A stretch of 25,420 nt of DNA from the NCBI GenBank assembly GCA_964550945.1, contig CAZKBD010000002.1, positions 16,727 through 42,146 of the forward strand, in the 5' to 3' direction. The position numbers were made by a program, and so were the translations under genes. This DNA is from an uncultured Methanosarcinales archaeon. Its GTDB lineage: Archaea > Nanobdellota > Nanobdellia > Woesearchaeales > CAZKBD01. Within the stretch, counting starts at the first letter, position 1. Every line of letters starts with the position of its first letter. Positions 1,180-11,842 of this stretch are shown piece by piece. The notes under the pieces were generated by a model that worked only from the letters and a program-made list of their open reading frames with translations, had not been told where the DNA came from and searched no databases.

Positions 1180-1944
1180 ATGAATACAGAAATACTTGAG
1201 AAAATTGGATTTACAAAAGGAGAAATTAAGGTGTATTTCTCTCTATTGGGGTTAAGTAACTCTACCTCTGGGCCAATTATTTTGAAGTCCAATGTTTCCA
1301 GATCAAAGGTCTATGAAATTCTTGAAAGATTAAAAGAAAAAGGGATAGTCAGCGAATCCATTAAAGAAAACACAAGATATTTTCAAGCAGCTTCTCCTGA
1401 ACGAATTTTGGATTACATTGAAGAAAAAGAGGATTCAATTAAGAATCAAAAAGAAGAATTCAAGAAGAGTTTGCCAGAATTAATTCAAAAGCAAAAATAT
1501 GCCGAAGAAAAGCAAGAGGTAAAAGTTTATGTCGGTTTTGAAGGGATAAAAACATTCTATAATGAAATATTAAAGCAATTAAATGAAGGCGATGAATACT
1601 TGGCTATGACATTTTCAGACATTTCATTGAACAATAAATCAATAGTACTGATGTTTCAAAAATTCCACCAAAAGAGGTCAGAAAAACACGCCAAAGCAAG
1701 GATTTTATGCAACATTAAAGACAGATTGACCCAGCAGAAGATGAACTACTCTGATACTGCTCTCTATGAATTTAGGGTTACCAATCAGATATTGCCTACA
1801 GGAATTGCTATTGTGAAAGATATTGTCGCAACCTTTAACTGGGGCAAGAAACCAAGAGTTTTTGCCATAATCTGTAAGGAAAACGCAGACCAATACAGGA
1901 GATTCTTCTATTCAGTATGGCATAAATCTAACCCTGTTCAATAA
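1180..1944 (+). CDS. TrmB-family transcriptional regulator (short form, 254 aa)
   Basis: The N-terminal winged helix LEKIGFTKGEIKVYFSLLGLSNSTSGPIILKSNVSRSKVYEILERLKEKGIV is followed by a charged coiled-coil linker, the typical TrmB N-terminal architecture. It is too short for a full sugar-binding domain. Confidence 0.8.
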   Translation: MNTEILEKIGFTKGEIKVYFSLLGLSNSTSGPIILKSNVSRSKVYEILERLKEKGIVSESIKENTRYFQAASPERILDYIEEKEDSIKNQKEEFKKSLPELIQKQKYAEEKQEVKVYVGFEGIKTFYNEILKQLNEGDEYLAMTFSDISLNNKSIVLMFQKFHQKRSEKHAKARILCNIKDRLTQQKMNYSDTALYEFRVTNQILPTGIAIVKDIVATFNWGKKPRVFAIICKENADQYRRFFYSVWHKSNPVQ

Positions 1945-3136
1945 CTGCCAAACAATAATTCTTTGTCAGATACTTATTAACAACCCTTATAATGTCTTTT
2001 TTCTGTATTTTTCTTATGTTTCTTATGTATTCGTTGATTAAATTTGCGTCGCCATTCATCTCCCAGAAATTAAGCTCATCAGCCAAATGAAAAGTATCTT
2101 CGTTATGCAATAAATATTCCCCTTCCAAATAAGTCTTAGCCTCTTTTAATTCCTCATCACTCAACTCTTTCAATTTTTCGAATTCTTCAAGAATCAATCT
2201 TACTACCAAGGGAATATTTTTCTTATCAGTATTCAGGTAAACAGCGAAATATCCATAACTTATGTTAGCTTCATGGTTAGCTCCAACCTCGTAAGCCAAT
2301 CCTCTTTTATTCCTTATCTCAATAAACAACTTGCCAGACTGGCCTCTGCCAAGTACAGCTTTTATAATGTCCAAAACATAGCTGTCTTTTTCTTTTCTGT
2401 TTACTGTTTTATAGCCTAAAACCATGTAAGAGCTGAGTATCTTTCTTTTTTCAGTCAGTTTTTGTATGCTTTTTTGCTTAGGCTCGTTTACTATCCGCTT
2501 TTTATCAAAATTTTTTCTATCAAAACCATAGAAATACCTCTTTATCAGAGGCAGGGGATTTTCTATTCCGCCTACGACTGCAATAATAATATTATTTGGC
2601 CTATAATATCTTTCAAAATAAGCCATAATATGCTGCCTTTTTATCTTTTTTATGGCTTGGACTGTGCCATAAACCGGGTTTTTTGTTGGGGATTTCTTGA
2701 AAAGAGCTTTCTGAAACAGAACCCATTGATGGAATCTTGGCTCATCCTTGACCATATTTATCTCTTTTAATATGACCTCTCTTTCGCGCTCTATGGACTT
2801 ATCCTCAAAAAGAGGATTTTGGATAACATCAGATAAAACATCTAAAGCAATCTCAAAATGCTTGTTCAGAACCTTGACAAAGAAGCATGTTTTTTCGTTA
2901 GAGGTATAAGCATTAAGATCTCCTCCTAATTTTTCAATCTCATTTGCAATCTCTTTGTTGGTTTTCCTTTTTTTTGTGCCTTCAAAGACCATGTGCTCAA
3001 TAAAGTGAGATATGCCGCTGACTTTTGAATCTTCATTGTTAGAGCCTGTTTTAACTGTTATCTCAATAGCAACTGATTTAGCAGCTTTCTTCTCAAAAAT
3101 CACTGTCAGGCCATTATTTAAGACAAATTTTTTCAT
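1928..3136 (-). CDS. M16 (pitrilysin/insulinase) family zinc peptidase
   Basis: The inverted zinc motif H-F-I-E-H is encoded at 2993-3007 (GISHFIEHMVFEGTKKR). A length of 402 aa with two homologous halves is typical of M16B. Confidence 0.9.
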   Translation of the reverse strand: MKKFVLNNGLTVIFEKKAAKSVAIEITVKTGSNNEDSKVSGISHFIEHMVFEGTKKRKTNKEIANEIEKLGGDLNAYTSNEKTCFFVKVLNKHFEIALDVLSDVIQNPLFEDKSIEREREVILKEINMVKDEPRFHQWVLFQKALFKKSPTKNPVYGTVQAIKKIKRQHIMAYFERYYRPNNIIIAVVGGIENPLPLIKRYFYGFDRKNFDKKRIVNEPKQKSIQKLTEKRKILSSYMVLGYKTVNRKEKDSYVLDIIKAVLGRGQSGKLFIEIRNKRGLAYEVGANHEANISYGYFAVYLNTDKKNIPLVVRLILEEFEKLKELSDEELKEAKTYLEGEYLLHNEDTFHLADELNFWEMNGDANLINEYIRNIRKIQKKDIIRVVNKYLTKNYCLAVIEQG

Positions 3137-3158
3137 ACAACAAATTTAAATGCCAAAC

Positions 3159-3168
3159 TATTTAAATA
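3159..3168. promoter_or_regulatory. perfectly palindromic TATA box TATTTAAATA shared by the divergent M16 and M24 genes
   Basis: The 10-nt palindrome is centred at 3163.5. That is 27.5 nt from the minus-strand ATG (3136) and 28.5 nt from the plus-strand ATG (3192). There is no SD on either side. Confidence 0.5.
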
Positions 3169-3191
3169 TAATCTTTTTGATATAAGCACTA

Positions 3192-4256
3192 ATGAGGATA
3201 AAAGAATTTCAGGAATGGCTGAAAGGGAAAAATATAGATTTTGCATTGCTTCTGAATAATTATAAGCAGGATCCAAACTTGTTTTATCTTACCCAGCTTG
3301 ATTTGGAATTTGCCTGCCTGATCATACCTAAAAATAAAAAACCTCTCTTGATTGTATCTTCTTTTGAAAAGGAAAGAGTGAAAAAATACGGCAAAATAAA
3401 AAATGTTATCGGCAAAAAGAAAGGACGGCTATTTGAGTACATCAAACACAGATTAAACAGAGCAAAAAAAATTGGAATAAACAAAAACGTATTTTCAGTG
3501 AACGAATATAAAGCGCTTAAAAAATACTTTAAGAAGTGCAGATTTATTGATATATCGCAAGAATTGACTAACCTAAGGCAGATAAAAACTAAGGAAGAGA
3601 TTTTATTGATAAAAAAATCAGCATCAATCGCTTCTAAAATCACTGAGAAATGCATATTGAATATCAAGAAACTTAAAACAGAGATAGCTGTAAAAGATTT
3701 TCTTGAAGTTGAAACAAAAAAGAATGGTTGTGAAATCGCATTTCCGCCTATTGTAGCTTCTGGCAGCAATGCCGCGATGCCCCATCATGCTCCGCAAAAT
3801 ATCCCACTAAAAAAAGGATTTTGCGTTATTGATTTTGGAGTTAAACACAGAGGATATTGCTCTGATCTAACAAGGACAGTTTATATTGGGAAGCCTTCTA
3901 AGAAAGAATTAGAACTTTATAACTTTTTATTGGATATACAACAGAATACCATTAAGGAGATAAAGATAAATAAGAAAACTTCTGATTTATACAATAAAGT
4001 TGTAAAAGACCTTGGAAAATTTAAAAAATACTTTACTCATGGCCTGGGCCACGGCATTGGAATAGAAGTGCATGAAAATCCCAACCTAACACCTGGCTCT
4101 AAAGATAAAATCAAGCAAGGCATGGCATTTACTGTTGAGCCAGGGATTTATATAAAGGACAAAATAGGGATAAGGATTGAAGATGACATACTGGTTGGAA
4201 AAAATAGTGTTGAGGTTTTAACAAAGACAAAAAAGAATTTGATTATCATAAAATAA
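3192..4256 (+). CDS. M24B Xaa-Pro aminopeptidase / prolidase family
   Basis: Pita-bread metal-ligand motifs are present: VIDFGVKHRGYCSDLTRT, HGLGHGIGIEVHENP, EPGIY and IRIEDD. Confidence 0.9.
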   Translation: MRIKEFQEWLKGKNIDFALLLNNYKQDPNLFYLTQLDLEFACLIIPKNKKPLLIVSSFEKERVKKYGKIKNVIGKKKGRLFEYIKHRLNRAKKIGINKNVFSVNEYKALKKYFKKCRFIDISQELTNLRQIKTKEEILLIKKSASIASKITEKCILNIKKLKTEIAVKDFLEVETKKNGCEIAFPPIVASGSNAAMPHHAPQNIPLKKGFCVIDFGVKHRGYCSDLTRTVYIGKPSKKELELYNFLLDIQQNTIKEIKINKKTSDLYNKVVKDLGKFKKYFTHGLGHGIGIEVHENPNLTPGSKDKIKQGMAFTVEPGIYIKDKIGIRIEDDILVGKNSVEVLTKTKKNLIIIK

Positions 4257-4260
4257 AAAA

Positions 4261-7131
4261 ATGAGACTCAATATGGCAAAATTTATAAGGATATCACATC
4301 TGCACTTGATGATTTTAATTGCCATTCTCTTAATCCATCCAGTTTTTGCTGCTAGTAATTGTACAGATTCCGATAATGGACAAAACTTCTTTGAAAAAGG
4401 AACAATGACTGATTCTGATTCAGGATATACTTATTCAGATTATTGTAGTTCTGATAAACTAGTAGAATTCTACTGTGATCCTGGATATCATTTCATCTAT
4501 AAGAATTGCTCTGAGTATAGCATGGTTTGTGAAGATGGAGCTTGTATAAATATGACCGCGCCACCTCCAACGACAGATAATTGCGCAGATTCTGATGGAG
4601 GGCAAAATTTTGATAACAAAGGAGTAGTTGTAGATAGAACAAATCGTACTGAGATAGATTATTGTACTAGTTCTTCTCAACTAGTTGAATGGTATTGCAG
4701 TTCCAATAACCTAGTTGAGTATGTGTACCAAACGTGTAGTTGTGAAAATGGAATGTGTGTAGAACTACAAGAATGTATAGACTCTGATGACGGGGTTGAT
4801 TATTATACGAAAGGAACTACAACTGGCCTTGCTTATATGAGAATAATAGACCCCACAGGAGACTATCCTCCAAATACAGGAGTATCCTTAACTGATTATT
4901 GTACAAGTTCTACATTTCTAAGGGATTACTTTTGTAATGAGGCAAAAAAAGTAACTTTCTACGCATATGAATGTCCCAACGGTTGTCAAGAGGGGGTTTG
5001 TATTACACCATCAAACAAATGTTCAGACGGAACATCTTATGGAGAATGTTCATCAACAAAACCAAAATATTGTGATAATGGAAATCTAATTAATAATTGT
5101 CAAGTATGTGGTTGTCTTTCTGGTCAAACATGTGAAACGAACGGCAGTTGCACTTCTCCACCATCAGAAGTTGTATGCACAGATTCTTCAATATTAGGAG
5201 ATGCAAATAATGATGGCAAAGTAACTTATGACGATTACATAACTGTTTTTAACATATACGCTGGTTCAATCCAACCGCCATCCAATCTTTGCTGTGTTGA
5301 CCTGGATAAGGATGGAGAGATTACAAGGGAAGATTCCCAGCTCACATATGATATCTATGTTGGAAAAATTAATCTGGGAAGATGCAATATAGCTGGTTGT
5401 GTTGTTGGAGATCCATGCACTACTTCAGAAAACTGCCTAGGAAAATATGATGTTGGCTGTAATTGCATAGATATTCCAAATGATAATTGTCCAGCTATTG
5501 TTAATGATACCACCCACCCAATAATTTCTGATGTGTCAATTACGCCTGAAGTTGGACCACCCGGAACTATTTTCACAATAAACTCAAGAGTTGAAGATGA
5601 ATCTGCATTGCAATATGTCGTAACTCCTATTTATATTCTTAACGATTATCAAAATTCAATTCAGTTGAATATGTATGACGATGGGCAACATAACGATGAA
5701 CAAGCTGATGATGGTATTTATGGTGCAGTATGGGACTCAACAGGATATCAAACAGGAGTGTATGGTTATGCTGTTTCAACAAGAGATTTTTATAATAATG
5801 ATGCATCCACTACTCTACACTATTTCTTGATTGCAGAAACAACGGATTTGTGCAAAGAAGTAATTCCAGGACACAATAACCTAAATGAACCGAGAGCAAA
5901 TATAGTTTTTGTTGGAATCAACTATCCAGACAAAGAATTTTTTAAAACAATAGTGGAAGAGAGTGTTGATTACGAAGGAAATAAACAAGGCCTATTGTTC
6001 TTAGAGCCTTTAAAATCAAATAAAGATAAATTTAATTTCTGGTATGTTGATGAAACTAAAGATTTGGGGCATAATCATTGGGATGATATCAGTGCATCAA
6101 ATAGTGAGAGGATACGATTGTCTTTTATGTGCCCCCTAAGCAACAAATATGTAATAGCGTATTATAACACCTTCTTTAGGCCACAGGCATTTTATAAAGC
6201 CCATGCAGAAATTTCATTTTTAGATGTTGACTGCTCTTTTAGGCAATACTGTGATAATGGTGATTTAGATCAAGATGGATGTGTATCTGGCCAGGATTAT
6301 CTGAATTATATGGATATGACTTTGGCACAAAACTTTGAAGATAAATCAGTTCCTGATATAAATGAAGATGGAAATATTAATGGAGATGATTTAGAAGTTT
6401 CATATTTATGCCAGGTATACAGAGTTGGTTGTTCAAATGAATATCCAGATTGCTTAAGAAGAGATATTTTTGATGATTATAAAACATATACTCCTCATGA
6501 AGTCGGACACTTATTTGGGGGTTTATTAGATGAATATGTTGAGGAAGGAGTAGCTCCTTATTCGATTTCTTATAACGGAAATTGTTTCCAAGGGACAAAG
6601 CAAGAATGTCTTTCAAATTTAAATGATAAATGGTATGATTTACTGGGTTATGGTTGTGGAGATAATAACAAAATAGATTGTGCTCAAGAGCCGAACTGCC
6701 AATATGATGCAAATGAAGATGGAAAGGTCACAATAGAAGACAGAGATGTTGTTTATAATATGTATACAGGTCAAATACCAATGAAAAATTGTACATCAGG
6801 GGGTCAAGAATATATTATCGGAGATGTTGATAATGATGACATATTAGAGTACGAAGATTATATAAAAGTGAGTAATGTAGGTAGTCTTGGTGTAGTGTGT
6901 GATGACCCGAATGATCCAGGATGTTATTTAGAAGTTGGTTGTTTTGAAGGGTGTAATTATCAAGCAACAGGGTGGTTTAGGAATACCGTATCCAACCTAA
7001 TGAGAAATAATTTTGTAGGTCCAGAATATTTTTCATATGGTCCTGTAAATGAGAGGATCATATGCGAAGAGATAAAATCTATTACTGGCTCAGCAACAGG
7101 CATATGTTCAACAAAATATAATACAGGGTGA
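4261..7131 (+). CDS. secreted multidomain protein: signal peptide, 3 Cys-rich repeats, Cys knot-like module, 3 dockerin-like modules, Ig-like domain, M64 (IgA-peptidase-like) zinc metallopeptidase core
   Basis: N-terminal signal/anchor KFIRISHLHLMILIAILLIHPVFA|AS. HEVGHLFGGLLDEY at 6496-6537 matches the M64 signature HExGHxFxxLxDEY. The upstream IVFVGINYPDKEFF...LEPLKSNKDKFNFWYVDE resembles the M64 core. An alternative ATG lies at 4273. Confidence 0.75.
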   Translation: MRLNMAKFIRISHLHLMILIAILLIHPVFAASNCTDSDNGQNFFEKGTMTDSDSGYTYSDYCSSDKLVEFYCDPGYHFIYKNCSEYSMVCEDGACINMTAPPPTTDNCADSDGGQNFDNKGVVVDRTNRTEIDYCTSSSQLVEWYCSSNNLVEYVYQTCSCENGMCVELQECIDSDDGVDYYTKGTTTGLAYMRIIDPTGDYPPNTGVSLTDYCTSSTFLRDYFCNEAKKVTFYAYECPNGCQEGVCITPSNKCSDGTSYGECSSTKPKYCDNGNLINNCQVCGCLSGQTCETNGSCTSPPSEVVCTDSSILGDANNDGKVTYDDYITVFNIYAGSIQPPSNLCCVDLDKDGEITREDSQLTYDIYVGKINLGRCNIAGCVVGDPCTTSENCLGKYDVGCNCIDIPNDNCPAIVNDTTHPIISDVSITPEVGPPGTIFTINSRVEDESALQYVVTPIYILNDYQNSIQLNMYDDGQHNDEQADDGIYGAVWDSTGYQTGVYGYAVSTRDFYNNDASTTLHYFLIAETTDLCKEVIPGHNNLNEPRANIVFVGINYPDKEFFKTIVEESVDYEGNKQGLLFLEPLKSNKDKFNFWYVDETKDLGHNHWDDISASNSERIRLSFMCPLSNKYVIAYYNTFFRPQAFYKAHAEISFLDVDCSFRQYCDNGDLDQDGCVSGQDYLNYMDMTLAQNFEDKSVPDINEDGNINGDDLEVSYLCQVYRVGCSNEYPDCLRRDIFDDYKTYTPHEVGHLFGGLLDEYVEEGVAPYSISYNGNCFQGTKQECLSNLNDKWYDLLGYGCGDNNKIDCAQEPNCQYDANEDGKVTIEDRDVVYNMYTGQIPMKNCTSGGQEYIIGDVDNDDILEYEDYIKVSNVGSLGVVCDDPNDPGCYLEVGCFEGCNYQATGWFRNTVSNLMRNNFVGPEYFSYGPVNERIICEEIKSITGSATGICSTKYNTG
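4360..5001 (+). repeat. three tandem divergent Cys-rich protein modules (C-x-DSD-x-G ... DYC-[ST]S ... [FW]YC ... G-x-C)
   Basis: Module 1 is 4360-4545 (CTDSDNGQNFFEKGT...DYCSSDKLVEFYC...CEDGAC). Module 2 is 4582-4758 (CADSDGGQNFDNKGV...DYCTSSSQLVEWYC...CENGMC). Module 3 is 4774-5001 (CIDSDDGVDYYTKGT...DYCTSSTFLRDYFC...CQEGVC). The similarity is at protein level only. Confidence 0.7.
5197..5370 (+). other. dockerin-like module 1 (two Ca-binding loop/helix repeats)
   Basis: GDANNDGKVTYDDYITVFNIYAGS ... VDLDKDGEITREDSQLTYDIYVGK, a paired repeat of about 22 residues with a DxNxDGxxxxxD loop. Confidence 0.65.
6253..6410 (+). other. dockerin-like module 2, inserted inside the M64 core upstream of HExxH
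   Basis: DNGDLDQDGCVSGQDYLNYMDM ... DINEDGNINGDDLEVSYLCQVY. Confidence 0.55.
6703..6870 (+). other. dockerin-like module 3
   Basis: YDANEDGKVTIEDRDVVYNMYTGQ ... GDVDNDDILEYEDYIKVSNV. Confidence 0.65.
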
Positions 7132-7135
7132 GAGC

Positions 7136-7684
7136 ATGAAAAAAATATTAATTATCTTTTTATTGGTTAGTTTAGTTTTACCCCTAGTTTATTCTGCGCA
7201 ACAAAAAGTCTATATCTTAAACCTAAAATATGATGAGGGGAAGGTTACAAAAGAAAGCCTGATTGTTACACGAGGCATGTTTAGTGAAGAAAGCCAACCA
7301 GAAACAGGATACAGACTAGAATTAATCTCTTTTGCAGGTGAAATCATTTATACGCGGAAATTTAGTTTTCCAGAACTTCAGAAAGGACCCTTGCCCAAAG
7401 AGTCAGATATTTTAGAAAGAGAAAAATACTTGCCAAATATAAAAGAAAAAGAACATTCTATCTTAAGAACATCCTCAGTTGAATTAATGATACCTTATTA
7501 TGAAGATGCAAAGACAATTAGAATTTATGATGTAAATGATATAAATGTATTAGAGATTGATGTTAGCTCTTTTTCAGAAAGGGCTGCTATTGATGAGACA
7601 TCAGCAGAAAAAGTAAATCCAACCAAAAGTTTGTTTCAAAGAATAGCAGATTTCTTAAAAAGGGTATTTGGATTAGGTGTGTGA
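7136..7684 (+). CDS. small secreted beta-rich protein, unknown function, translationally coupled to the M64-like gene
   Basis: Signal peptide MKKILIIFLLVSLVLPLVYS|AQ. GGTGA (7127-7131), overlapping the upstream stop codon, sits 4 nt before the ATG. There is a C-terminal amphipathic helix SLFQRIADFLKRVFGLGV. Confidence 0.6.
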   Translation: MKKILIIFLLVSLVLPLVYSAQQKVYILNLKYDEGKVTKESLIVTRGMFSEESQPETGYRLELISFAGEIIYTRKFSFPELQKGPLPKESDILEREKYLPNIKEKEHSILRTSSVELMIPYYEDAKTIRIYDVNDINVLEIDVSSFSERAAIDETSAEKVNPTKSLFQRIADFLKRVFGLGV

Positions 7685-7711
7685 CTAATAGAGACCACTC
7701 AAAAACCAAAG

Positions 7712-7720
7712 AAATAAATA
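7712..7720 (+). promoter_or_regulatory. TATA-like box AAATAAATA upstream of the long M29 paralogue
   Basis: Centred about 27 nt upstream of the ATG at 7743, the same spacing as the other first genes in this window. Confidence 0.4.
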
Positions 7721-7742
7721 CAAGTAGTTAGAAAAAATCCAT

Positions 7743-9524
7743 ATGAAATACAACCTAAGCATATTCAACAAGGAAGTTGGCTATTACCTTAACAAATTAA
7801 AGGGCAAGGTAAAAAATAAGACTATTTTTGTGATTATAGACATAAAACACCAAAAAGCATTTTATTCTATCGCTGCTCTATCAAGAGCGACTAATGAATT
7901 AGGCGCAGACCTTCATGTTGTTGTAATTGACGGCAAAAGCAAGAATTTGGAGATGATTAAGGATGTGTGGAGCATATATGATGACCTGAAAAAAAAGCTA
8001 AGAACCAAAAAAGCTGGAGCTCTGCGGGCTTTTATCAGCGCCGTAGACAAAAGGACATCTAATAACACGTTCATGGATATTTTTGAAAGGCCTGAATTTA
8101 TTCTAACTGCAAATGAACACAATTTCTCTGGGACAATTGAATTGGATTATAAGGATAGCTGGCACAAAAAATACAGACAAGAAGAGCTTTTGGAAACTGC
8201 AAAAAAGATATGGAAAGAGGGATATGCTGTCAAAAAAGATGAAAATGTGAGCATTGGTTTTGTTTTAGTCCCATCAAAAAAGGATACAGAGCTGCCTTTA
8301 GAAGATTATCTTGACTCTTCTTCAATTTCCTTGGCAATGGCAATGGCAGCCAAAGGATTTAAGGCAAAAGTCAGCTTGGCTTCTTCAACAGACAGGTCTT
8401 CCCAGCTAGAAAAGCCTGTGAGAACAGCTGAGTTAATGATGACTTTAAGGGGCTGTGAGATGGATAAAGAAGTTGATGATGAAATATTCAGAAAATATAA
8501 GGAATTTTCAAAATTAATGAATATGGAAAAAATGGAGTTCAGCCAAGCCAGTTTCGGGATTCATGCCAAAGGGTATTATGGACGGCATTTCTTTGGAGAA
8601 CGGATAGGATACCCTAGCTTAGATAAAAAAACAATATGGAGCTCTCCTGGGCAGCTCATGCTGAAAGACAGGTATGAGCCGCAAGCGGCATTAGAAAAAA
8701 GGGACCCTATGATGAGGTATGCTATTACAGAAACATTGCCCATAGACCTTTTCATTGAAACATGCAATGTGGATTATGGGAAGCTAAGAAAAAGAAGCAT
8801 CAAAATAAGGGATATATTCAATAAATGCAGATACATAAGGGTTGTTGGAAAACAAATTGGCAATTATAAAACTGATTTTAGGGTTGATTTGATAACAAAA
8901 GAAGGCAAAAGAAGAGAATTTACTGCTTCTGACTCTGATGTTACATCAATAATTGACCAGGAATGGTATAAAAAAACCGGCAGGAAATGCGGAGCTTATG
9001 CAAATTTTCCATCTGGAGAGACTTTTGTGACTCCTGAGAAAATGAAAGGCATGATGATTGGAGATGTAGTCATTAATGTTGACAGGAGCTATGTTATACC
9101 TAAAGGAAATCCCATAATAGTTGAATTCGGAGAAAAAGGATATAAAGTGATAAAAGCGCCTGCAAATATATTGAAGGCTATGAATAAAGTAAGAAGAGAG
9201 TCAAAGCAAAAATTGAAGGATTATGAAAAAAATAAAAGCCTGCCGAAAGAGATTATTGAGATTTACAAAAGAAATTTCTGGAATATTGGCGAATTTGCAG
9301 TAAATACCAATCCAAAAGCGAAATTATGCAATTACCTTATTGTAAATGAAAAGATTGCAAGGATGATTCATGTTGCTTTAGGCTTAGGTTTTGAGCCAGA
9401 CCGTAAAACATTATACCATTGGGATATTGTGGTCAATTCACCTAAACAGAAAATGGACATATATGGAGTTGATGACAATAATAAAATTTACTGGGTAATC
9501 AAAAAAGGGGAATTTGTTGCATGA
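7743..9524 (+). CDS. M29 (aminopeptidase T/AmpS/PepS)-like protein, expanded 593-aa form
   Basis: The C-terminal half carries M29-like motifs: NFPSGETFVTPE, IGEFAVNTNPKA, NEKIARMIHVALGLG and TLYHWDIVV. The N-terminal KTIFVIIDIKHQKAFYSIAALSRATNELGADLHVVV resembles the M29 N-domain. It has about 275 more residues than its neighbour. Confidence 0.6.
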   Translation: MKYNLSIFNKEVGYYLNKLKGKVKNKTIFVIIDIKHQKAFYSIAALSRATNELGADLHVVVIDGKSKNLEMIKDVWSIYDDLKKKLRTKKAGALRAFISAVDKRTSNNTFMDIFERPEFILTANEHNFSGTIELDYKDSWHKKYRQEELLETAKKIWKEGYAVKKDENVSIGFVLVPSKKDTELPLEDYLDSSSISLAMAMAAKGFKAKVSLASSTDRSSQLEKPVRTAELMMTLRGCEMDKEVDDEIFRKYKEFSKLMNMEKMEFSQASFGIHAKGYYGRHFFGERIGYPSLDKKTIWSSPGQLMLKDRYEPQAALEKRDPMMRYAITETLPIDLFIETCNVDYGKLRKRSIKIRDIFNKCRYIRVVGKQIGNYKTDFRVDLITKEGKRREFTASDSDVTSIIDQEWYKKTGRKCGAYANFPSGETFVTPEKMKGMMIGDVVINVDRSYVIPKGNPIIVEFGEKGYKVIKAPANILKAMNKVRRESKQKLKDYEKNKSLPKEIIEIYKRNFWNIGEFAVNTNPKAKLCNYLIVNEKIARMIHVALGLGFEPDRKTLYHWDIVVNSPKQKMDIYGVDDNNKIYWVIKKGEFVA

Positions 9525-10474
9525 AGTTAAAAAAACAAGTTTCTTTGTCTATACTCAAGAATTGCATGGCTCTTAAAAAAACCGAGCGCTTATTGATAGT
9601 ATATGATAAACATAAGGAAGATATTGCTGATTCTATTATCGATGAAGCGAAAAAAATTACTGAAAACATAAGAAAAATTCAAACAAAAATCGCTAAAGTA
9701 AATGGCGAAGAGCCTTCTAACAAAGTTGCAAAAGAGATGCAGAAGTGCGATGTTTTGCTGCTGATAACTACCAAATCCCTCTCTCATACAGAATCCAGAA
9801 GAAAAGCGTCTAAAAAAGGAGTAAGGGCAGCAAGCCTTCCTGGCGTGACTGTAGAAATGTTAAACAGAGCACAAACCGCCGATTACCTAAAAATAAAAAA
9901 AATAAATGATAGGATATACAAAAAAATAAAAAACAAAAAAATTCTAAGAATCAAAACAGACAAAGGAACTGATTTATTGGTTTATATTCAAACTCCAGTT
10001 ATTGATTCTGGGTTATACATCAAAAAAGGCTCTTTTGGGAATCTTCCTGCTGGAGAGGTTTTATTTGCTCCTGTTGAGCATAAAACAAAAGGCATTGTTG
10101 TGATAGATAAGACCATGGCAGGAATAGGAAAACTAAAAAGCCCTATCAAACTGAAAATTGAAAATGGTTACGTTAAAGAGATTACAGGGAAAAAAGAAGC
10201 TGTAAAACTGGATAAACTATTGGGAGAATTTAAGACAAAAGCAGTTTACAACATTGCAGAATGCGCATTTGGCACTAATTATAAGGCAAAAATCAGCGGA
10301 ATTACATTAGAAGATGAAAAGGTTTTTGGGACTGTCCATATAGCATTAGGAGATAATACTAGCTTCCCAGGCGGAAAAACAAGAGCTCCTGTCCATCTGG
10401 ATGGGGTTATTAGCAAGCCGACTGTGTATGTGGATGGTAAGAAGATAATGAACAAAGGCAAGTTATCCATCTGA
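9521..10474 (+). CDS. M29 family aminopeptidase (compact 317-aa form)
   Basis: Motifs present: GNLPAGEVLFAPVE, IAECAFGTNYKA, LEDEKVFGTVHIALGDN and APVHLDGVI. An ATGA start/stop overlap with the upstream paralogue lies at 9521-9524. Confidence 0.8.
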   Translation: MKLKKQVSLSILKNCMALKKTERLLIVYDKHKEDIADSIIDEAKKITENIRKIQTKIAKVNGEEPSNKVAKEMQKCDVLLLITTKSLSHTESRRKASKKGVRAASLPGVTVEMLNRAQTADYLKIKKINDRIYKKIKNKKILRIKTDKGTDLLVYIQTPVIDSGLYIKKGSFGNLPAGEVLFAPVEHKTKGIVVIDKTMAGIGKLKSPIKLKIENGYVKEITGKKEAVKLDKLLGEFKTKAVYNIAECAFGTNYKAKISGITLEDEKVFGTVHIALGDNTSFPGGKTRAPVHLDGVISKPTVYVDGKKIMNKGKLSI

Positions 10475-10551: not shown

Positions 10552-11421
10552 ATGATAATAAACAATAAGGCGCAAGCAGCAATCATGGGGTTTCTGACAG
10601 AGAGATGGTATGATTCTTTTACAGCCAAAGAAATCAAGGAAAAAACTCACCTTAGTTTTCAATCGGTTTATGACTCGCTTCATTTCCTGTCAGACAAGAA
10701 CATAGTAACGCTTCATAACAACAGCTACGCAATCAACTTCAGAAATGAAATTGCCTGGTCGTTCAAAAAACTGTATGATAGCAATAAGTTTTTACAGTTA
10801 GATCAGCATCTCCAGAATATCATAAAACTTATGAGGGAAAAGCTTGAGTTATTTTACCAATACGATCTGCTTGCTTTTTTAGTTTTCGGCTCAATAGCAA
10901 AGCTAGAGCATAAAAAGAAAAGCGACATTGACTTTTTTGTCCTATTCAAGGATAAACAAAAAGATTTTCTAAAAACCTTAACATTAGACTATGCCAATTT
11001 TAATTATATCGATAAAGATATCGCCGAATTTAATAAGGAATTTGAAGAAGGAGACGATCTTTTGATTTCGATATTCAAAAATAACCTAATAATGTACGGA
11101 AATGATTTTCTAAGGCATTATTTCGAAAAAGGCCTGCCCAATATAGGCAAGAATGTAATAGATGATAGGGAAAAGGCTCTTGAAAAGATGAAGCACAAAA
11201 TCGATAGTTTGTATAGAGAAGACAACAACCAGATGTTAGTTGAAGTTTTTAAAAGGTATGTGCTGTTAAAATCAAGAGTTGAACTTATCAGAAGATTAAA
11301 CAAGATTCCGTCAACAAAACAGGAAACACTAAACGAAATGAGAAAGATAGATAAAAAGCTGATAGAATCTTATAATGCAAACATAAAGAATATTAAAAAA
11401 ATTGTTGAGGCCCATGTCTGA
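10552..11421 (+). CDS. winged-helix + minimal nucleotidyltransferase (MNT-like) fusion protein with C-terminal helical domain
   Basis: The NTase signature G-S-x10-D-x-D (GSIAKLEHKKKSDIDFFV) is encoded at 10888-10932. The N-terminal wHTH-like segment is AAIMGFLTERWYDSFTAKEIKEKTHLSFQSVYDSLHFLSDKNIV. Confidence 0.75.
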   Translation: MIINNKAQAAIMGFLTERWYDSFTAKEIKEKTHLSFQSVYDSLHFLSDKNIVTLHNNSYAINFRNEIAWSFKKLYDSNKFLQLDQHLQNIIKLMREKLELFYQYDLLAFLVFGSIAKLEHKKKSDIDFFVLFKDKQKDFLKTLTLDYANFNYIDKDIAEFNKEFEEGDDLLISIFKNNLIMYGNDFLRHYFEKGLPNIGKNVIDDREKALEKMKHKIDSLYREDNNQMLVEVFKRYVLLKSRVELIRRLNKIPSTKQETLNEMRKIDKKLIESYNANIKNIKKIVEAHV

Positions 11422-11842
11422 ACGGATCAAAAAAGTTTATGAGTTTACAAAAGAGAGATTAGAGAAAGCTATATCCTTTTTTAATGAAGGGGATGTTGAG
11501 GATTCTGTGCAGAATATCTGGTCTGTTTTTGAGAATTGCATAAACTTGTTAAAAGATATCAAGAATCATGCCCCTTTATACCAGCATAGACCAAAAACAG
11601 AGCTGTTTAGGAAGTATTACAGGGAGAAAATCCTGTCAAAGGATTACTCTAATTTTCATAAAGAAATTGACGATTACAGGAAGAGGGCATTTCTAAGCGA
11701 ATATTCAAGAACAAAGCCCTTGCCGCCATTAGCCTCTATTAAGCCTTATTTGGATAAGGCTAAAGAGCTTTTTGAAGAAACAAAACAAGAGCTAATAAAA
11801 GAGAAGGTAATAGAAGAAAGAAAAACGTCGCAAGAGAAGTAG
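11414..11842 (+). CDS. HEPN-like all-helical protein, partner of the nucleotidyltransferase
   Basis: The ATG at 11414 overlaps the NTase stop by 8 nt (ATGTCTGA), with GAGG (11407-11410) 3 nt upstream. The track's start at 11402 is a TTG. The helical pattern EKAISFFNEGDVEDSVQNIWSVFENCINLLKD...H...DDYRKRAFLSEY resembles the PF05168-type HEPN usually paired with MNT. I found no R-x(4-6)-H motif. Confidence 0.55.
   Translation: MSERIKKVYEFTKERLEKAISFFNEGDVEDSVQNIWSVFENCINLLKDIKNHAPLYQHRPKTELFRKYYREKILSKDYSNFHKEIDDYRKRAFLSEYSRTKPLPPLASIKPYLDKAKELFEETKQELIKEKVIEERKTSQEK

What the first reader, a model, noticed from the sequence alone, without database searches (positions are those of the whole stretch)
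4261..7131. 956-aa secreted protein combining three dockerin-like modules, Cys-rich repeats and an M64 (IgA-peptidase-like) core split by a dockerin insertion
Architecture as read from the translation:

- A signal peptide.
- Three tandem Cys-rich modules (4360-5001).
- A CSDGTSYGECS...YCDNGNLINNCQVCGC module.
- Dockerin-like module 1 (5197-5370).
- An Ig-like segment with MYDDGQHNDEQADDGIYGAVW (about 5521-5830).
- An M64-like catalytic core (about 5893-6650) with HEVGHLFGGLLDEY at 6496-6537.
- Dockerin-like module 3 (6703-6870) and a Cys-containing C-terminal region.

As I recall canonical M64 proteins, the strand equivalent to VIAYYNTFF sits only a few tens of residues from HExxH. Here about 90 residues intervene, and they contain a complete second dockerin-like pair (6253-6410).

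Three dockerins in one archaeal protein imply docking to cohesin-type partners. This could be a cell-surface assembly or, in an episymbiotic small-genome archaeon, a device that contacts the host and degrades its proteins. M64 enzymes are known for cleaving Pro-rich hinge sequences.
Basis: partly seen in the sequence, partly recalled or inferred. Interest (0 to 1): 0.7.

Follow-up and report, generated by a model that had tools for sequence, protein, structure and literature searches.

The report
Archaeal M64 protease with nested dockerins
This is a real gene for a secreted, many-module zinc protease of a tiny-genome (DPANN) archaeon whose catalytic domain is interrupted twice by calcium-binding dockerin-like modules; it sits in a peptide-digestion operon next to a conserved small anchored partner protein, which makes it an unusual variant of a known protease family rather than a new kind of system.

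Summary
The ORF 4261-7131 (956 aa) is real and was recovered in several independent assemblies. Its six 12-residue Ca-loop motifs compare with 0.08 expected by chance.

The catalytic domain belongs to family M64. It has the HEXXHXXXGXXD motif, and a DPANN-only profile hits the solved M64 enzymes at E 8e-18.

Two corrections:
- The catalytic domain runs to the C-terminus, so dockerin-like module 3 is also an insertion inside it. It lies in 'loop 4', which covers the active site in the solved enzymes.
- Ca-loop insertions before the HExxH helix are not unique. One-loop and two-loop versions occur in several other clusters of this archaeal M64 subfamily.

All three modules are dockerin type I-like by sequence: module 1 is solid, modules 2 and 3 are weaker. 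No cohesin is encoded in the window, and the rest of the genome could not be reached.

New finding: the gene is translationally coupled to a small secreted, C-terminally anchored beta-sandwich protein (7136-7684). This partner is syntenic in at least seven other loci and fused to an M64 domain in one protein. Its model weakly resembles the N-terminal gate domain of the Bacteroides M64 peptidase.

M24 and M29 peptidase genes flank the pair. The most likely role is surface proteolysis for peptide scavenging.

The parts
4261..4350 (+). Signal peptide (residues 1-30; alternative start Met5 at 4273)
   Evidence: Read from the sequence: K/R-rich n-region, hydrophobic core, VFA|AS. NCBI's copy starts at Met5.
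4360..5001 (+). Three 6-Cys 'CxDSDxG...' repeats (residues 34-95, 108-166, 172-247)
   Evidence: Cys positions. Local jackhmmer finds 221 copies in 65 of the related proteins. No Pfam match even at E 10.
5017..5151 (+). 'CSDGTxYGxCS...NCxxCGC' Cys-rich module (residues 253-297)
   Evidence: 129 copies in 32 related proteins. No Pfam match.
5176..5385 (+). Dockerin-like module 1 (residues 306-375), clamped by Cys306, 344, 345 and 375
   Evidence: Pfam Dockerin_1 26.3 bits (cut-off 22.9). EF-hand_1 also scores 26.8 bits. A profile of this module type hits solved dockerins at E 6e-21 to 1e-9, ahead of EF-hand proteins.
5515..5835 (+). Ig-like beta-sandwich with choice-of-anchor X motif (residues 419-525)
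   Evidence: NCBIfam NF041940 32.7 bits. AF2 pLDDT is mostly about 75-90. Foldseek hits are Ig-like domains.
5845..6228 (+). M64 catalytic domain, N-terminal alpha/beta part (residues 529-656), up to the strand before the active-site helix
   Evidence: Alignments A2 and A3. AF2 pLDDT about 63-95, mostly above 84. The profile matches 4df9_A.
6229..6477 (+). Nested dockerin-like module 2 (residues 657-739; loops at 668 and 699; six Cys)
   Evidence: Absent from P0009, P0010, P0008 and bacterial M64. Pfam Dockerin_1 18.5 bits, below the cut-off. The profile hits dockerins 6kgc_B at 1.7e-5 and 3ul4_B at 0.008. hhalign against the module-1 type gives 79%. AF2 predicts loop-helix twice at pLDDT about 58-75.
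6478..6681 (+). Active-site helix and start of 'loop 4' (residues 740-807), with HEVGHLFGGLLDEY at 6496-6537 (His746, Glu747, His750, Asp757)
   Evidence: Motif HEXXHXXXGXXD as defined for M64 (PMC12402451). Invariant in alignments A2 and A3.
6682..6891 (+). Nested dockerin-like module 3 (residues 808-877; loops at 816 and 855), inside loop 4
   Evidence: Present only in the query, P0002 and P0003. hhalign against the module-1 type gives 97%, E 1.3e-10. Pfam scores only 14.4 bits. Best PDB hit is the dockerin pair 8x39_A at E 0.005. AF2 did not model it (pLDDT 29-40).
6892..7131 (+). C-terminal part of the M64 catalytic domain (residues 878-956) and stop codon
   Evidence: The motifs GCFEGCNY, FR..SNLMR and SYGPVNE align to 4df9_A residues 360-408. 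AF2 pLDDT is about 53-67 over the two strands (893-909) and 74-91 from residue 926.
7136..7684 (+). Conserved partner gene: 182-aa secreted seven-strand beta-sandwich protein with a C-terminal amphipathic helix (a transmembrane helix in relatives)
   Evidence: The start lies 4 nt after the peptidase stop. Syntenic after M64-like genes in L001, L003, L005, L009, L010, L011 and L015. Fused in P0089, E 2.6e-22. AF2 core pLDDT 88-97. The Foldseek top 9 hits are all BF3526, E 0.03-0.14.
3192..4256 (+). Upstream operon member: PepQ-like M24 Xaa-Pro peptidase
   Evidence: Pfam Peptidase_M24 194 bits. NCBIfam dipep_PepQ_Arch is the best hit but scores below its cut-off. The stop lies 4 nt before the M64 start.
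7743..10474 (+). Downstream operon members: two overlapping M29-like aminopeptidase ORFs (7743-9524 and 9521-10474)
   Evidence: Peptidase_M29 scores 49.6 bits for 9521-10474. For 7743-9524 there is only a weak C-terminal M29 match, E 0.007.

Best explanation
The gene encodes a Sec-exported, disulfide-rich, modular zinc metallopeptidase of family M64. The host is a groundwater DPANN archaeon of the Woesearchaeota/Pacearchaeota type.

**Shown**
- The catalytic domain (residues about 529-956) has the complete M64 zinc site: His746, His750 and Asp757, with Glu747 as the general base.
- It is interrupted twice by Cys-clamped, dockerin type I-like Ca-loop pairs.
  - The first lies between the last core strand and the active-site helix.
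  - The second lies inside the long 'loop 4'.
  - In the solved M64 enzymes both of these elements border the active-site cavity.
- The gene sits in an operon-like row: PepQ-like M24, M64, a small anchored partner, then two M29-like ORFs.
- The partner is a conserved neighbour of this M64 subfamily and is fused to the catalytic domain in one relative.

**Inferred**
- The enzyme is exported and folds with Ca2+ and disulfides.
- It is kept at the cell surface. The membrane-associated partner probably does this, and the N-terminal DPANN surface modules, including dockerin-like module 1, may contribute.
- It cuts extracellular proteins or peptides. The products are imported and finished by the cytoplasmic M24 and M29 peptidases, supplying amino acids to an organism with little biosynthesis.
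- I favour the two nested modules being Ca2+-dependent structural or exosite elements that shape access to the active site. I consider them less likely to be classical cohesin plugs.
- The partner may act in trans like the N-terminal gate domain of the Bacteroides enzyme BF3526.
For: **M64 membership**
- The motif is present.
- Pfam scores 26.8 bits on the domain alone.
- The DPANN-only profile A2 hits 4df9_A at 8e-18 and 3p1v_A at 4e-17, in three collinear stretches that include the C-terminal motifs.
- The profile search also reaches bacterial M64 proteins P0092 and P0094.

**Insert positions**
- They come from alignments A1 and A3.
- Their structural meaning comes from PMC12402451. There the active site is flanked by alpha4, beta12, loop 3, loop 4 and the NTD, and loop 4 is flexible above the active site.

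**Dockerin likeness**

**In-situ origin of insert 1**
- One-loop versions with the same DGC and YGC Cys pattern occur in P0079, P0080, P0082, P0084, P0085, P0095 and P0122.
- Two-loop versions occur in P0125 and P0168 (same Cys pattern) and, in a different form, in P0132, P0153 and P0214; P0130 shares the pattern but only one of its loops fits the motif.

**Operon**
- The intergenic gaps are 4 nt, 4 nt, 58 nt and an overlap.
- A TATA-like box lies at 3161-3168.

**Partner**
- Synteny is shown, and the fusion.
- Relatives have C-terminal transmembrane helices.
- The model has four strands, a short helix, then three strands. This is the same order as the BF3526 NTD described in PMC12402451.
- Asp91 is invariant in that short helix.
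- The Foldseek top hits are BF3526 only.

**Archaeal context**
Against: **Catalytic domain**
- The whole-protein Pfam M64 score (22.8) is below the cut-off.
- The AF2 model is only moderate (mean pLDDT 67) and module 3 is unmodelled.
- Foldseek with that model returned only Ig-like hits and no M64 entry in the top 50.
- The structural second Zn site of bacterial M64 (Glu/Cys/Cys/Cys) is absent (with PMC12402451).

**Partner**
- Its resemblance to the BF3526 NTD is weak. The best E is 0.034.
- 3p1v is not among the top 50 hits.
- hhalign against M64_N gives E 0.43.
- In the fusion protein the domain is C-terminal, whereas the NTD is N-terminal.

**General**
- There is no expression, localisation or activity data.
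- The choice between a structural role and a docking role for the nested modules is not resolved by any test run here.
Confidence: 0.6

Rival explanations
1. All three modules are functional dockerins that plug into cohesin-type receptors on the archaeon's own surface or on a host cell. They assemble or position the protease at a cell-cell interface.
For: - The modules are dockerin type I-like by sequence.
- Archaeal cohesin-dockerin pairs have been shown to bind (PMC9012536, citing Haimovitz et al. 2008).
- Module-1-type modules recur on many DPANN secreted proteins carrying other catalytic domains.
- A dockerin's two ends lie close together, which makes it easy to insert into a loop. This point is from my own knowledge.
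Against: - None of 27 window ORFs is a cohesin.
- The partner protein's model has no cohesin among its top 50 structural matches.
- The partner also accompanies dockerin-free peptidases P0009 and P0010.
- One-loop versions of insert 1 exist at the same site.
- Modules 2 and 3 fall below the Pfam cut-off.
- A module buried in catalytic loops next to the cleft would be sterically awkward to plug into a cohesin. This is an inference.
Confidence: 0.2
2. The enzyme is an offensive tool. It degrades host S-layer or other host surface proteins at the contact site to open access to host cytoplasm or lipids. It is not a general peptide scavenger.
For: [quoted passage not shown]
- The protein has many putative binding modules upstream of the protease.
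- It is probably tethered to the membrane by the partner.
Against: - The operon partners are ordinary cytoplasmic peptide-finishing enzymes (M24, M29), which fits nutrition.
- No host is known.
- No feature tested here points to a specific substrate.
Confidence: 0.12
3. The protein is mainly an adhesin or structural surface protein, and the M64-like domain is catalytically dead or vestigial.
For: - Cys-rich and Ca-binding modules make up a large share of the protein.
- Two large insertions disrupt the catalytic domain.
- The structural Zn site is lost.
Against: - All catalytic residues of the M64 motif, plus the Tyr of DEY, are kept in the query and its closest relatives P0002 and P0003. The motif is invariant or nearly so across the aligned archaeal and bacterial relatives.
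- The core regions are modelled with high confidence.
- The gene is linked to other peptidase genes.
Confidence: 0.05

Closest known systems
BF3526 (Bacteroides fragilis) and BACOVA_00663 (B. ovatus), MEROPS family M64; PDB 4DF9/9QDI and 3P1V
   Same: - The HEXXHXXXGXXD zinc motif followed by E-Y.
- The N-terminal EPF-S-K-FN segment.
- The C-terminal G-x-[FY]-E-G-x-x-Y ... Y-R-P ... M-R ... P-V segment.
- The DPANN profile hits these structures at E 8e-18 and 4e-17.
- Both are secreted.
- A seven-strand beta-sandwich with a helix between strands 4 and 5 accompanies the catalytic domain. It is in cis in BF3526 and possibly in trans here.
   Different: - There is no PF16217 N-terminal domain in cis.
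- The Cys3-Glu structural Zn site is replaced (Asn912, Gly927, Asn930).
- Loop 3 of BF3526 has no counterpart.
- Two dockerin-like modules are inserted.
- Many disulfide-type Cys are present.
- About 500 residues of extra N-terminal modules are added.
ThomasA, the IgA protease of Thomasclavelia (Clostridium) ramosa; PDB 9QDH, 9EKK and others
   Same: - It is a multidomain secreted M64 enzyme in which accessory beta domains surround the catalytic domain.
- Loop 4 flanks the active site.
- The DPANN profile hits it at E 1.8e-4.
   Different: - The accessory domains are different.
- Its substrate recognition through the IgA Fab has no counterpart expected in groundwater archaea.
- It has no Ca-loop insertions.
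Type I dockerins of cellulosomal enzymes (e.g. 2CCL/1OHZ Xyn10B, 3UL4, 6KGC) and the tandem dockerins of a serine protease (8X39)
   Same: - A duplicated 12-residue Ca loop followed by a helix.
- Loop spacing of 31-39 residues.
- Profile E-values of 6e-21 to 1e-9 for the module-1 type.
   Different: - Here the modules are clamped by conserved Cys.
- Two of them are nested inside a catalytic domain rather than appended at an end.
- No cohesin partner is known.
- The context is not cellulolytic.
Non-cellulosomal dockerin/cohesin-like modules of archaea (Archaeoglobus, ANME; Peer et al. 2009 as cited in PMC9012536)
   Same: They are dockerin-like modules on archaeal secreted proteins, and their role cannot be read from their presence alone.
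   Different: - Those reports concern terminal modules, often with cohesins in the same genome.
- I found no report of DPANN M64 enzymes or of nested dockerins. The M64 survey in PMC12402451 does not contain the words 'archaea' or 'dockerin'. In the listed results of a paper search (M64, DPANN, Woesearchaeota, Nanoarchaeota, peptidase; at least 3 of 5 terms) no paper held 'M64'.

Membership tests
MEROPS M64 / Pfam PF09471 (IgA peptidase M64) | Zinc-binding motif HEXXHXXXGXXD, as defined in PMC12402451 | tested here: met
   HEVGHLFGGLLD at residues 746-757. It is invariant in alignments A2 and A3.
MEROPS M64 / Pfam PF09471 (IgA peptidase M64) | Profile match at the curated threshold | tested here: inconclusive
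   22.8 bits for the whole protein (cut-off 26). 26.8 bits for residues 529-956 alone and 27.5 bits with both inserts removed. Only profile positions 127-198 of 302 match. Relatives P0009 and P0010 score 40 and 35 bits.
MEROPS M64 / Pfam PF09471 (IgA peptidase M64) | Homology to structurally solved M64 enzymes over the whole catalytic domain | tested here: met
   The DPANN-only profile A2 hits 4df9_A at 8e-18 and 3p1v_A at 4e-17, in N-terminal, active-site and C-terminal stretches. It hits 9ekk_A at 1.8e-4.
MEROPS M64 / Pfam PF09471 (IgA peptidase M64) | M64 three-dimensional fold | tested here: inconclusive
   The AF2 model has mean pLDDT 67. The Foldseek top 50 hits were all to the Ig-like domain, so nothing was learned about the catalytic part.
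MEROPS M64 / Pfam PF09471 (IgA peptidase M64) | Second, structural Zn site (Glu plus three Cys), present in BF3526 and ThomasA | tested here: not met
   The Cys positions align to Asn912, Gly927 and Asn930 (alignment with PMC12402451). This is a feature of the two solved enzymes, not the family definition.
MEROPS M64 / Pfam PF09471 (IgA peptidase M64) | N-terminal beta-sandwich domain (PF16217) of the largest M64 cluster | tested here: not met
   There is no PF16217 match in the protein. The downstream partner is a candidate trans equivalent only. Foldseek gives E 0.03-0.14 to BF3526, and hhalign gives E 0.43.
MEROPS M64 / Pfam PF09471 (IgA peptidase M64) | Zn-dependent peptidase activity, with cleavage next to Pro in the characterised members | not testable with these tools
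   This needs biochemistry.
Dockerin type I (Pfam PF00404) | Two tandem repeats, each a 12-residue Ca-binding loop followed by a helix | tested here: met
   Loop pairs lie at 314/347, 668/699 and 816/855, far above chance. For module 2, AF2 predicts helices starting inside each loop.
Dockerin type I (Pfam PF00404) | Profile match at the curated threshold | tested here: inconclusive
   Module 1 scores 26.3 bits and passes (cut-off 22.9). Module 2 scores 18.5 and module 3 scores 14.4, and both fail. hhalign against the module-1-type profile gives 79% for module 2 and 97% for module 3.
Dockerin type I (Pfam PF00404) | Closer to solved dockerins than to EF-hand proteins | tested here: met
   Module-1 type: dockerins at 6e-21 to 1e-9, EF-hand proteins from 2e-6. 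Module 2: dockerins at 1.7e-5, EF-hand proteins at 0.5. Module 3: only the dockerin pair 8x39_A at 0.005.
Dockerin type I (Pfam PF00404) | Dockerin fold confirmed by structure comparison | not tested
Module 3 is unmodelled in the large model.
Dockerin type I (Pfam PF00404) | A cohesin partner and Ca2+-dependent binding to it | tested here: inconclusive
   No cohesin is found among 27 window ORFs. The rest of the genome is not retrievable. Binding cannot be tested here.
Choice-of-anchor X domain (NCBIfam NF041940) | Profile match at the curated threshold | tested here: met
   32.7 bits against a cut-off of 25, at residues 469-494.

The most novel reading that the evidence does not exclude
This is a two-component, surface-tethered protease of an ultrasmall archaeon.

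- The gate domain that bacterial M64 enzymes carry at their N-terminus is made here as a separate, membrane-anchored protein (7136-7684). It binds the catalytic subunit in trans and restricts it to free N-termini.
- The two dockerin modules grafted into the loops around the active site are true docking sites. They clamp the catalytic cleft directly onto a cohesin-like receptor on a host or self surface protein.
- Proteolysis would then be switched on, or aimed, only at the cell-cell contact.
Probability: 0.1. Interest if true: 0.8.

Novelty: new variant of a known kind. Interest (0 to 1): 0.5.

Why it matters
- **Family scope.** Studies of M64 peptidases have centred on gut bacteria. The 2025 family survey does not contain the word 'archaea'. 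Here a large archaeal branch appears: 543 cluster representatives at E 1e-30 or better in the profile search, whose best-scoring members are the archaeal-type proteins. It has its own rules: disulfides instead of the structural zinc site, Ca-loop insertions at the rim of the active site, and a conserved small anchored partner.
- **DPANN biology.** How DPANN archaea feed and attach is a central open question. This locus gives a concrete two-gene module, inside a peptide-processing operon, that can be expressed and tested.
- **Protein engineering.** Dockerin-type modules nested in catalytic loops would also interest protein engineers, because they show a natural insertion-tolerant site in a metalloprotease.
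- **Limits.** None of this changes a paradigm. The family, the module types and the likely role are all of known kinds.

Tried and rejected
1. **Foldseek of the 376-956 model against the PDB.** Only Ig-like hits came back, so it says nothing about the catalytic or dockerin folds.
2. **Partner as sequence homologue of M64_N.**
   - hhalign against P0092 and P0094 N-domains gave E 0.43.
   - The profile found nothing in the PDB.
   - Pfam found nothing.
   - This is rejected at the sequence level and kept only as a weak structural lead.
3. **P0008 C-terminal extension as a second fusion with the partner.**
   - BLASTP gave E 0.097 on 11 residues.
   - An HMM of stand-alone partners does not detect it.
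   - It is not counted.
4. **Module 3 as a circularly permuted dockerin (repeat 2, then repeat 1).** One PDB alignment and local jackhmmer suggested this. The collinear hhalign alignment is far stronger (97%), so I dropped the permuted reading.
5. **Partner as a cohesin.** No cohesin is among its top 50 structural matches. It also occurs with dockerin-free peptidases.
6. **Reaching the rest of the 60-kb source contig or genome.**
   - P0001 is not on record.
   - End-of-window genes are found only on contigs of about 1-2 kb.
   - The species-representative genome collection holds only relatives.
7. **Single origin of the two-loop insert.** A crude neighbour-joining tree scatters the insert-bearing clusters. 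I cannot tell repeated gain from repeated loss.
8. **tRNA genes.** There are none in the window.

Full report

The ORF 4261..7131 on the + strand encodes 956 aa.
- Its G+C content (0.34-0.36) matches its surroundings.
- A 100% identical protein is in NCBI. It is 952 aa and starts at Met5 (4273).
- Its 90% cluster has members from JGI and ENA assemblies. It is therefore not an assembly artefact.

- 56 Cys, including three 6-Cys repeats at residues 34-247.
- The CSDGT module at residues 253-297.
- Ca-loop pairs at residues 314/347, 668/699 and 816/855.
- HEVGHLFGGLLDEY at residues 746-759 (6496-6537).

Six matches to a 12-residue Ca-loop pattern compare with 0.08 expected from shuffles (maximum 3 in 20,000).

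**2. Organism and neighbourhood**

The window is archaeal. It carries L30/L7e, S5, L15, SecY, an EMC3/Oxa1-like protein, L14e, L19e and L32e.
- Relatives of the protein come from Woesearchaeota, Pacearchaeota, Micrarchaeota and other DPANN MAGs.
- Identical neighbouring genes occur in groundwater metagenomes.

The gene lies in a tight same-strand row:
- PepQ-like M24 (3192-4256), then a 4-nt gap.
- The M64-like gene, then a 4-nt gap.
- A 182-aa secreted ORF (7136-7684), then a 58-nt gap.
- Two overlapping M29-like ORFs, ending at 10474.

An M16 peptidase gene lies divergently upstream. A TATA-like TTTAAATA lies about 25 nt before 3192.

**3. The catalytic domain**

*Pfam.* On the whole protein Pfam M64 scores 22.8 bits, below the cut-off of 26. 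On residues 529-956 alone it scores 26.8, and with both inserts removed 27.5. In each case only the active-site region matches.

*Profile evidence, which is decisive.*
- An alignment of seven DPANN catalytic regions (A2) hits the solved Bacteroides M64 enzymes 4df9_A (8e-18) and 3p1v_A (4e-17). The match comes in three collinear stretches: N-terminal, active-site and C-terminal. It also hits the T. ramosa IgA protease at 1.8e-4.
- Against 5.8 billion proteins the same profile reaches proteins that NCBI names M64 peptidases, including bacterial ones with PF09471 and PF16217.

*Motif.* The family motif HEXXHXXXGXXD (PMC12402451) is intact: His746, Glu747, His750 and Asp757, followed by Glu-Tyr.

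*Differences from the solved enzymes.*
- The Glu/Cys/Cys/Cys structural zinc site is missing. The three Cys align to Asn912, Gly927 and Asn930 (PMC12402451).
- There is no PF16217 N-terminal domain.

*Structure prediction.* The AF2 model of residues 376-956 has mean pLDDT 67.
- It is mostly confident for the Ig-like domain (about 75-90) and for the core strands and helices of the N-terminal half (mostly 84-95).
- Foldseek with it returned only Ig-like matches, so the fold test was uninformative.

**4. The insertions**

Alignments with insert-free relatives (P0009, P0010, P0008, P0052, bacterial P0092 and P0094) show two insertions in the query, P0002 and P0003.

*Insert 1 (residues 657-739).*
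- It sits between the strand EISFLD and the active-site helix.
- The distance from the KFNFW motif to HExxH is 156 residues here, against a family median of 86.

*Insert 2 (residues 808-877).*
- It sits after GYGCGDNNKIDC and before the conserved GCFEGCNY...FR..SNLMR...SYGPVNE block.
- That block aligns to BF3526 residues 360-408.

*Structural meaning.* In BF3526 the active site is flanked by the active-site helix, strand beta12, loop 3, loop 4 (residues 317-409, flexible above the active site) and the N-terminal domain (PMC12402451).
- Insert 1 lies at the junction just before that helix.
- Insert 2 lies within the equivalent of loop 4.
- Both therefore border the cleft. This is an inference from the alignment.

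**5. Are the modules dockerins?**

*Module 1.* It passes Pfam Dockerin_1 (26.3 against 22.9). It also passes EF-hand_1.
- A profile of 13 modules of this type from DPANN proteins hits solved dockerins first and strongly. 8x39_A scores 6e-21, and 4uyq_B, 2ccl_B, 3ul4_B and 1daq_A score around 1e-10.
- EF-hand proteins appear only from 2e-6.

*Module 2.*
- Pfam Dockerin_1 scores 18.5 bits, below the cut-off.
- Its profile hits dockerins 6kgc_B at 1.7e-5 and 3ul4_B at 0.008.
- hhalign against the module-1 type gives 79%.
- AF2 predicts the loop-helix, loop-helix pattern at pLDDT about 58-75.

*Module 3.*
- Pfam Dockerin_1 scores 14.4 bits.
- hhalign against the module-1 type gives 97% (E 1.3e-10), collinear, with a linker 7 residues longer.
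- AF2 could not model it.

'Three dockerin-like modules' therefore holds at the sequence level. The fold of modules 2 and 3 and any binding remain untested.

**6. How unusual is the insertion?**

A profile search of 1.84 billion cluster representatives finds 10,798 M64-type proteins at E 1e-3 or better, and 543 at 1e-30 or better. Among 159 family members examined, the best hits plus the earlier relatives:
- 19 have at least one Ca loop at site 1, and 8 have two.
- A sister clade has a one-loop version (P0079, P0080, P0082, P0084, P0085, P0095, P0122). It shares the peculiar D-x-N-x-D-G-C-V loop and the downstream C...YGC pattern.
- P0125 and P0168 share the query's C-x-F-x-Q-Y-C ... DGC ... 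YGC ... C pattern with two loops. P0130 shares it with one loop matching the motif.
- Two loops at site 2 occur only in the query's own cluster.
- A crude neighbour-joining tree scatters these states.

Insert 1 is thus a recurrent, Cys-locked feature of this archaeal subfamily, not a one-off graft. That favours a structural or exosite role, although it does not exclude docking.

**7. Cohesins**

None of 27 window ORFs has a cohesin match. I could not reach the rest of the genome. The literature notes two things (PMC9012536):
- Archaeal dockerin and cohesin modules exist outside cellulose degradation.
- Their presence alone does not define a function.

**8. The partner gene**

*Synteny and fusion.* The 182-aa ORF at 7136-7684 has homologues immediately downstream of M64-like genes in L001/L002 (P0002), L003/L004 (P0009), L005 (P0010), L009, L010, L011 and L015. 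E-values range from 1e-81 to 5e-18.
- It is absent next to P0082 and P0088.
- An HMM built only from stand-alone partners matches residues 245-396 of the M64-like protein P0089 at 2.6e-22. That is a fusion.

*Architecture.* Family members have a signal peptide, a beta-rich domain of about 130 aa, and a C-terminal segment. That segment is a transmembrane helix with a basic tail in P0235, P0236, P0239, P0240 and the L003 ORF. In the window's copy it is an amphipathic helix.

*Sequence searches.* No Pfam, NCBIfam or PDB sequence match was found.

*Structure.* The AF2 model has core pLDDT 88-97. It shows four strands, a short helix and three strands. The BF3526 N-terminal domain has the same element order: seven strands in two sheets, with helix alpha1 between beta4 and beta5. 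Glu97 of that helix contacts the substrate N-terminus, and the domain restricts access to the active site (PMC12402451).
- The partner family has an invariant Asp91 in its short helix. That region is modelled with low confidence.
- The nine best Foldseek hits are all chains of BF3526 (E 0.034-0.14, probability up to 0.96). No cohesin is in the top 50.

*Against the resemblance.*
- These hits are weak.
- 3P1V is missing from the list.
- hhalign against two bacterial M64_N sequences is negative.
- The fused copy is C-terminal.

I treat 'trans-acting gate or anchor subunit' as a lead, with roughly even odds.

**9. Other modules**

The 6-Cys repeats and the CSDGT module recur in dozens of DPANN secreted proteins that carry other catalytic domains, such as C25, subtilisin, M14 and LamG. 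They have no Pfam model. They look like a shared extracellular module kit, and their function is unknown.

**10. Verdict**

- The M64 and dockerin-like assignments are supported.
- The cohesin-docking and host-attack interpretations are unsupported, though not excluded.
- The best reading is a surface-associated M64 metallopeptidase that feeds a peptide-scavenging operon. It has Ca2+/disulfide modules grafted at the rim of the active site and a conserved small anchored partner.
- It is a new variant of a known kind and of moderate interest.

Noticed in passing
window 7136-7684 (+); also L001:3730-4251, L003:8801-9406, L005:7508-8131, L009:3142-3621, L010:8505-9101, L011:6295-7167, L015:1672-2397: A small secreted beta-sandwich protein with a C-terminal anchor sits directly downstream of M64-like peptidase genes in many DPANN loci. 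It is fused to the catalytic domain in P0089. It belongs to no described family. Its model weakly resembles the N-terminal gate domain of BF3526.
   Followed up: yes
window 3192-10474 (+) and 1928-3136 (-): The neighbourhood is rich in peptidase genes. A PepQ-like M24, the M64 gene, the partner and two overlapping M29-like ORFs appear to form one operon, with an M16 gene divergent upstream. The 593-aa ORF 7743-9524 has only a faint M29 match (E 0.007) and is otherwise unassigned.
   Followed up: partly
relatives P0105, P0110, P0135, P0156, P0167, P0218, P0227 and others (not in the window): About 24 of 157 relatives of the catalytic domain lack the canonical HExxH...DEY pattern at the aligned position. 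Many of them have HExxxH (e.g. HEFGGH, HEVGGH). That is one extra residue between the two zinc-binding histidines.
   Followed up: no
window 6991-7053 (residues 911-931): The Cys3-Glu structural zinc site described for both solved M64 enzymes is not conserved. The three Cys positions are Asn912, Gly927 and Asn930. The domain instead carries many Cys that look like disulfide partners.
   Followed up: partly
window 4360-5151 (residues 34-297): Two Cys-rich module types have no Pfam model: 'CxDSDxG...C..G.C' and 'CSDGTxYGxCS...NCxxCGC'. They are shuffled across dozens of DPANN secreted proteins that carry unrelated catalytic domains.
   Followed up: partly
window 10552-11421 and 11402-11842 (+): An MNT-type nucleotidyltransferase (MntA-like, weak match) overlaps a PaREP1-like ORF by 20 nt. 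This may be a HEPN/MNT-type toxin-antitoxin pair.
   Followed up: no
window 3137-3191: Two TTTAAAT-type elements lie in the 55-nt divergent intergenic region between the M16 and M24 genes. They look like archaeal TATA boxes, one for each direction.
   Followed up: no
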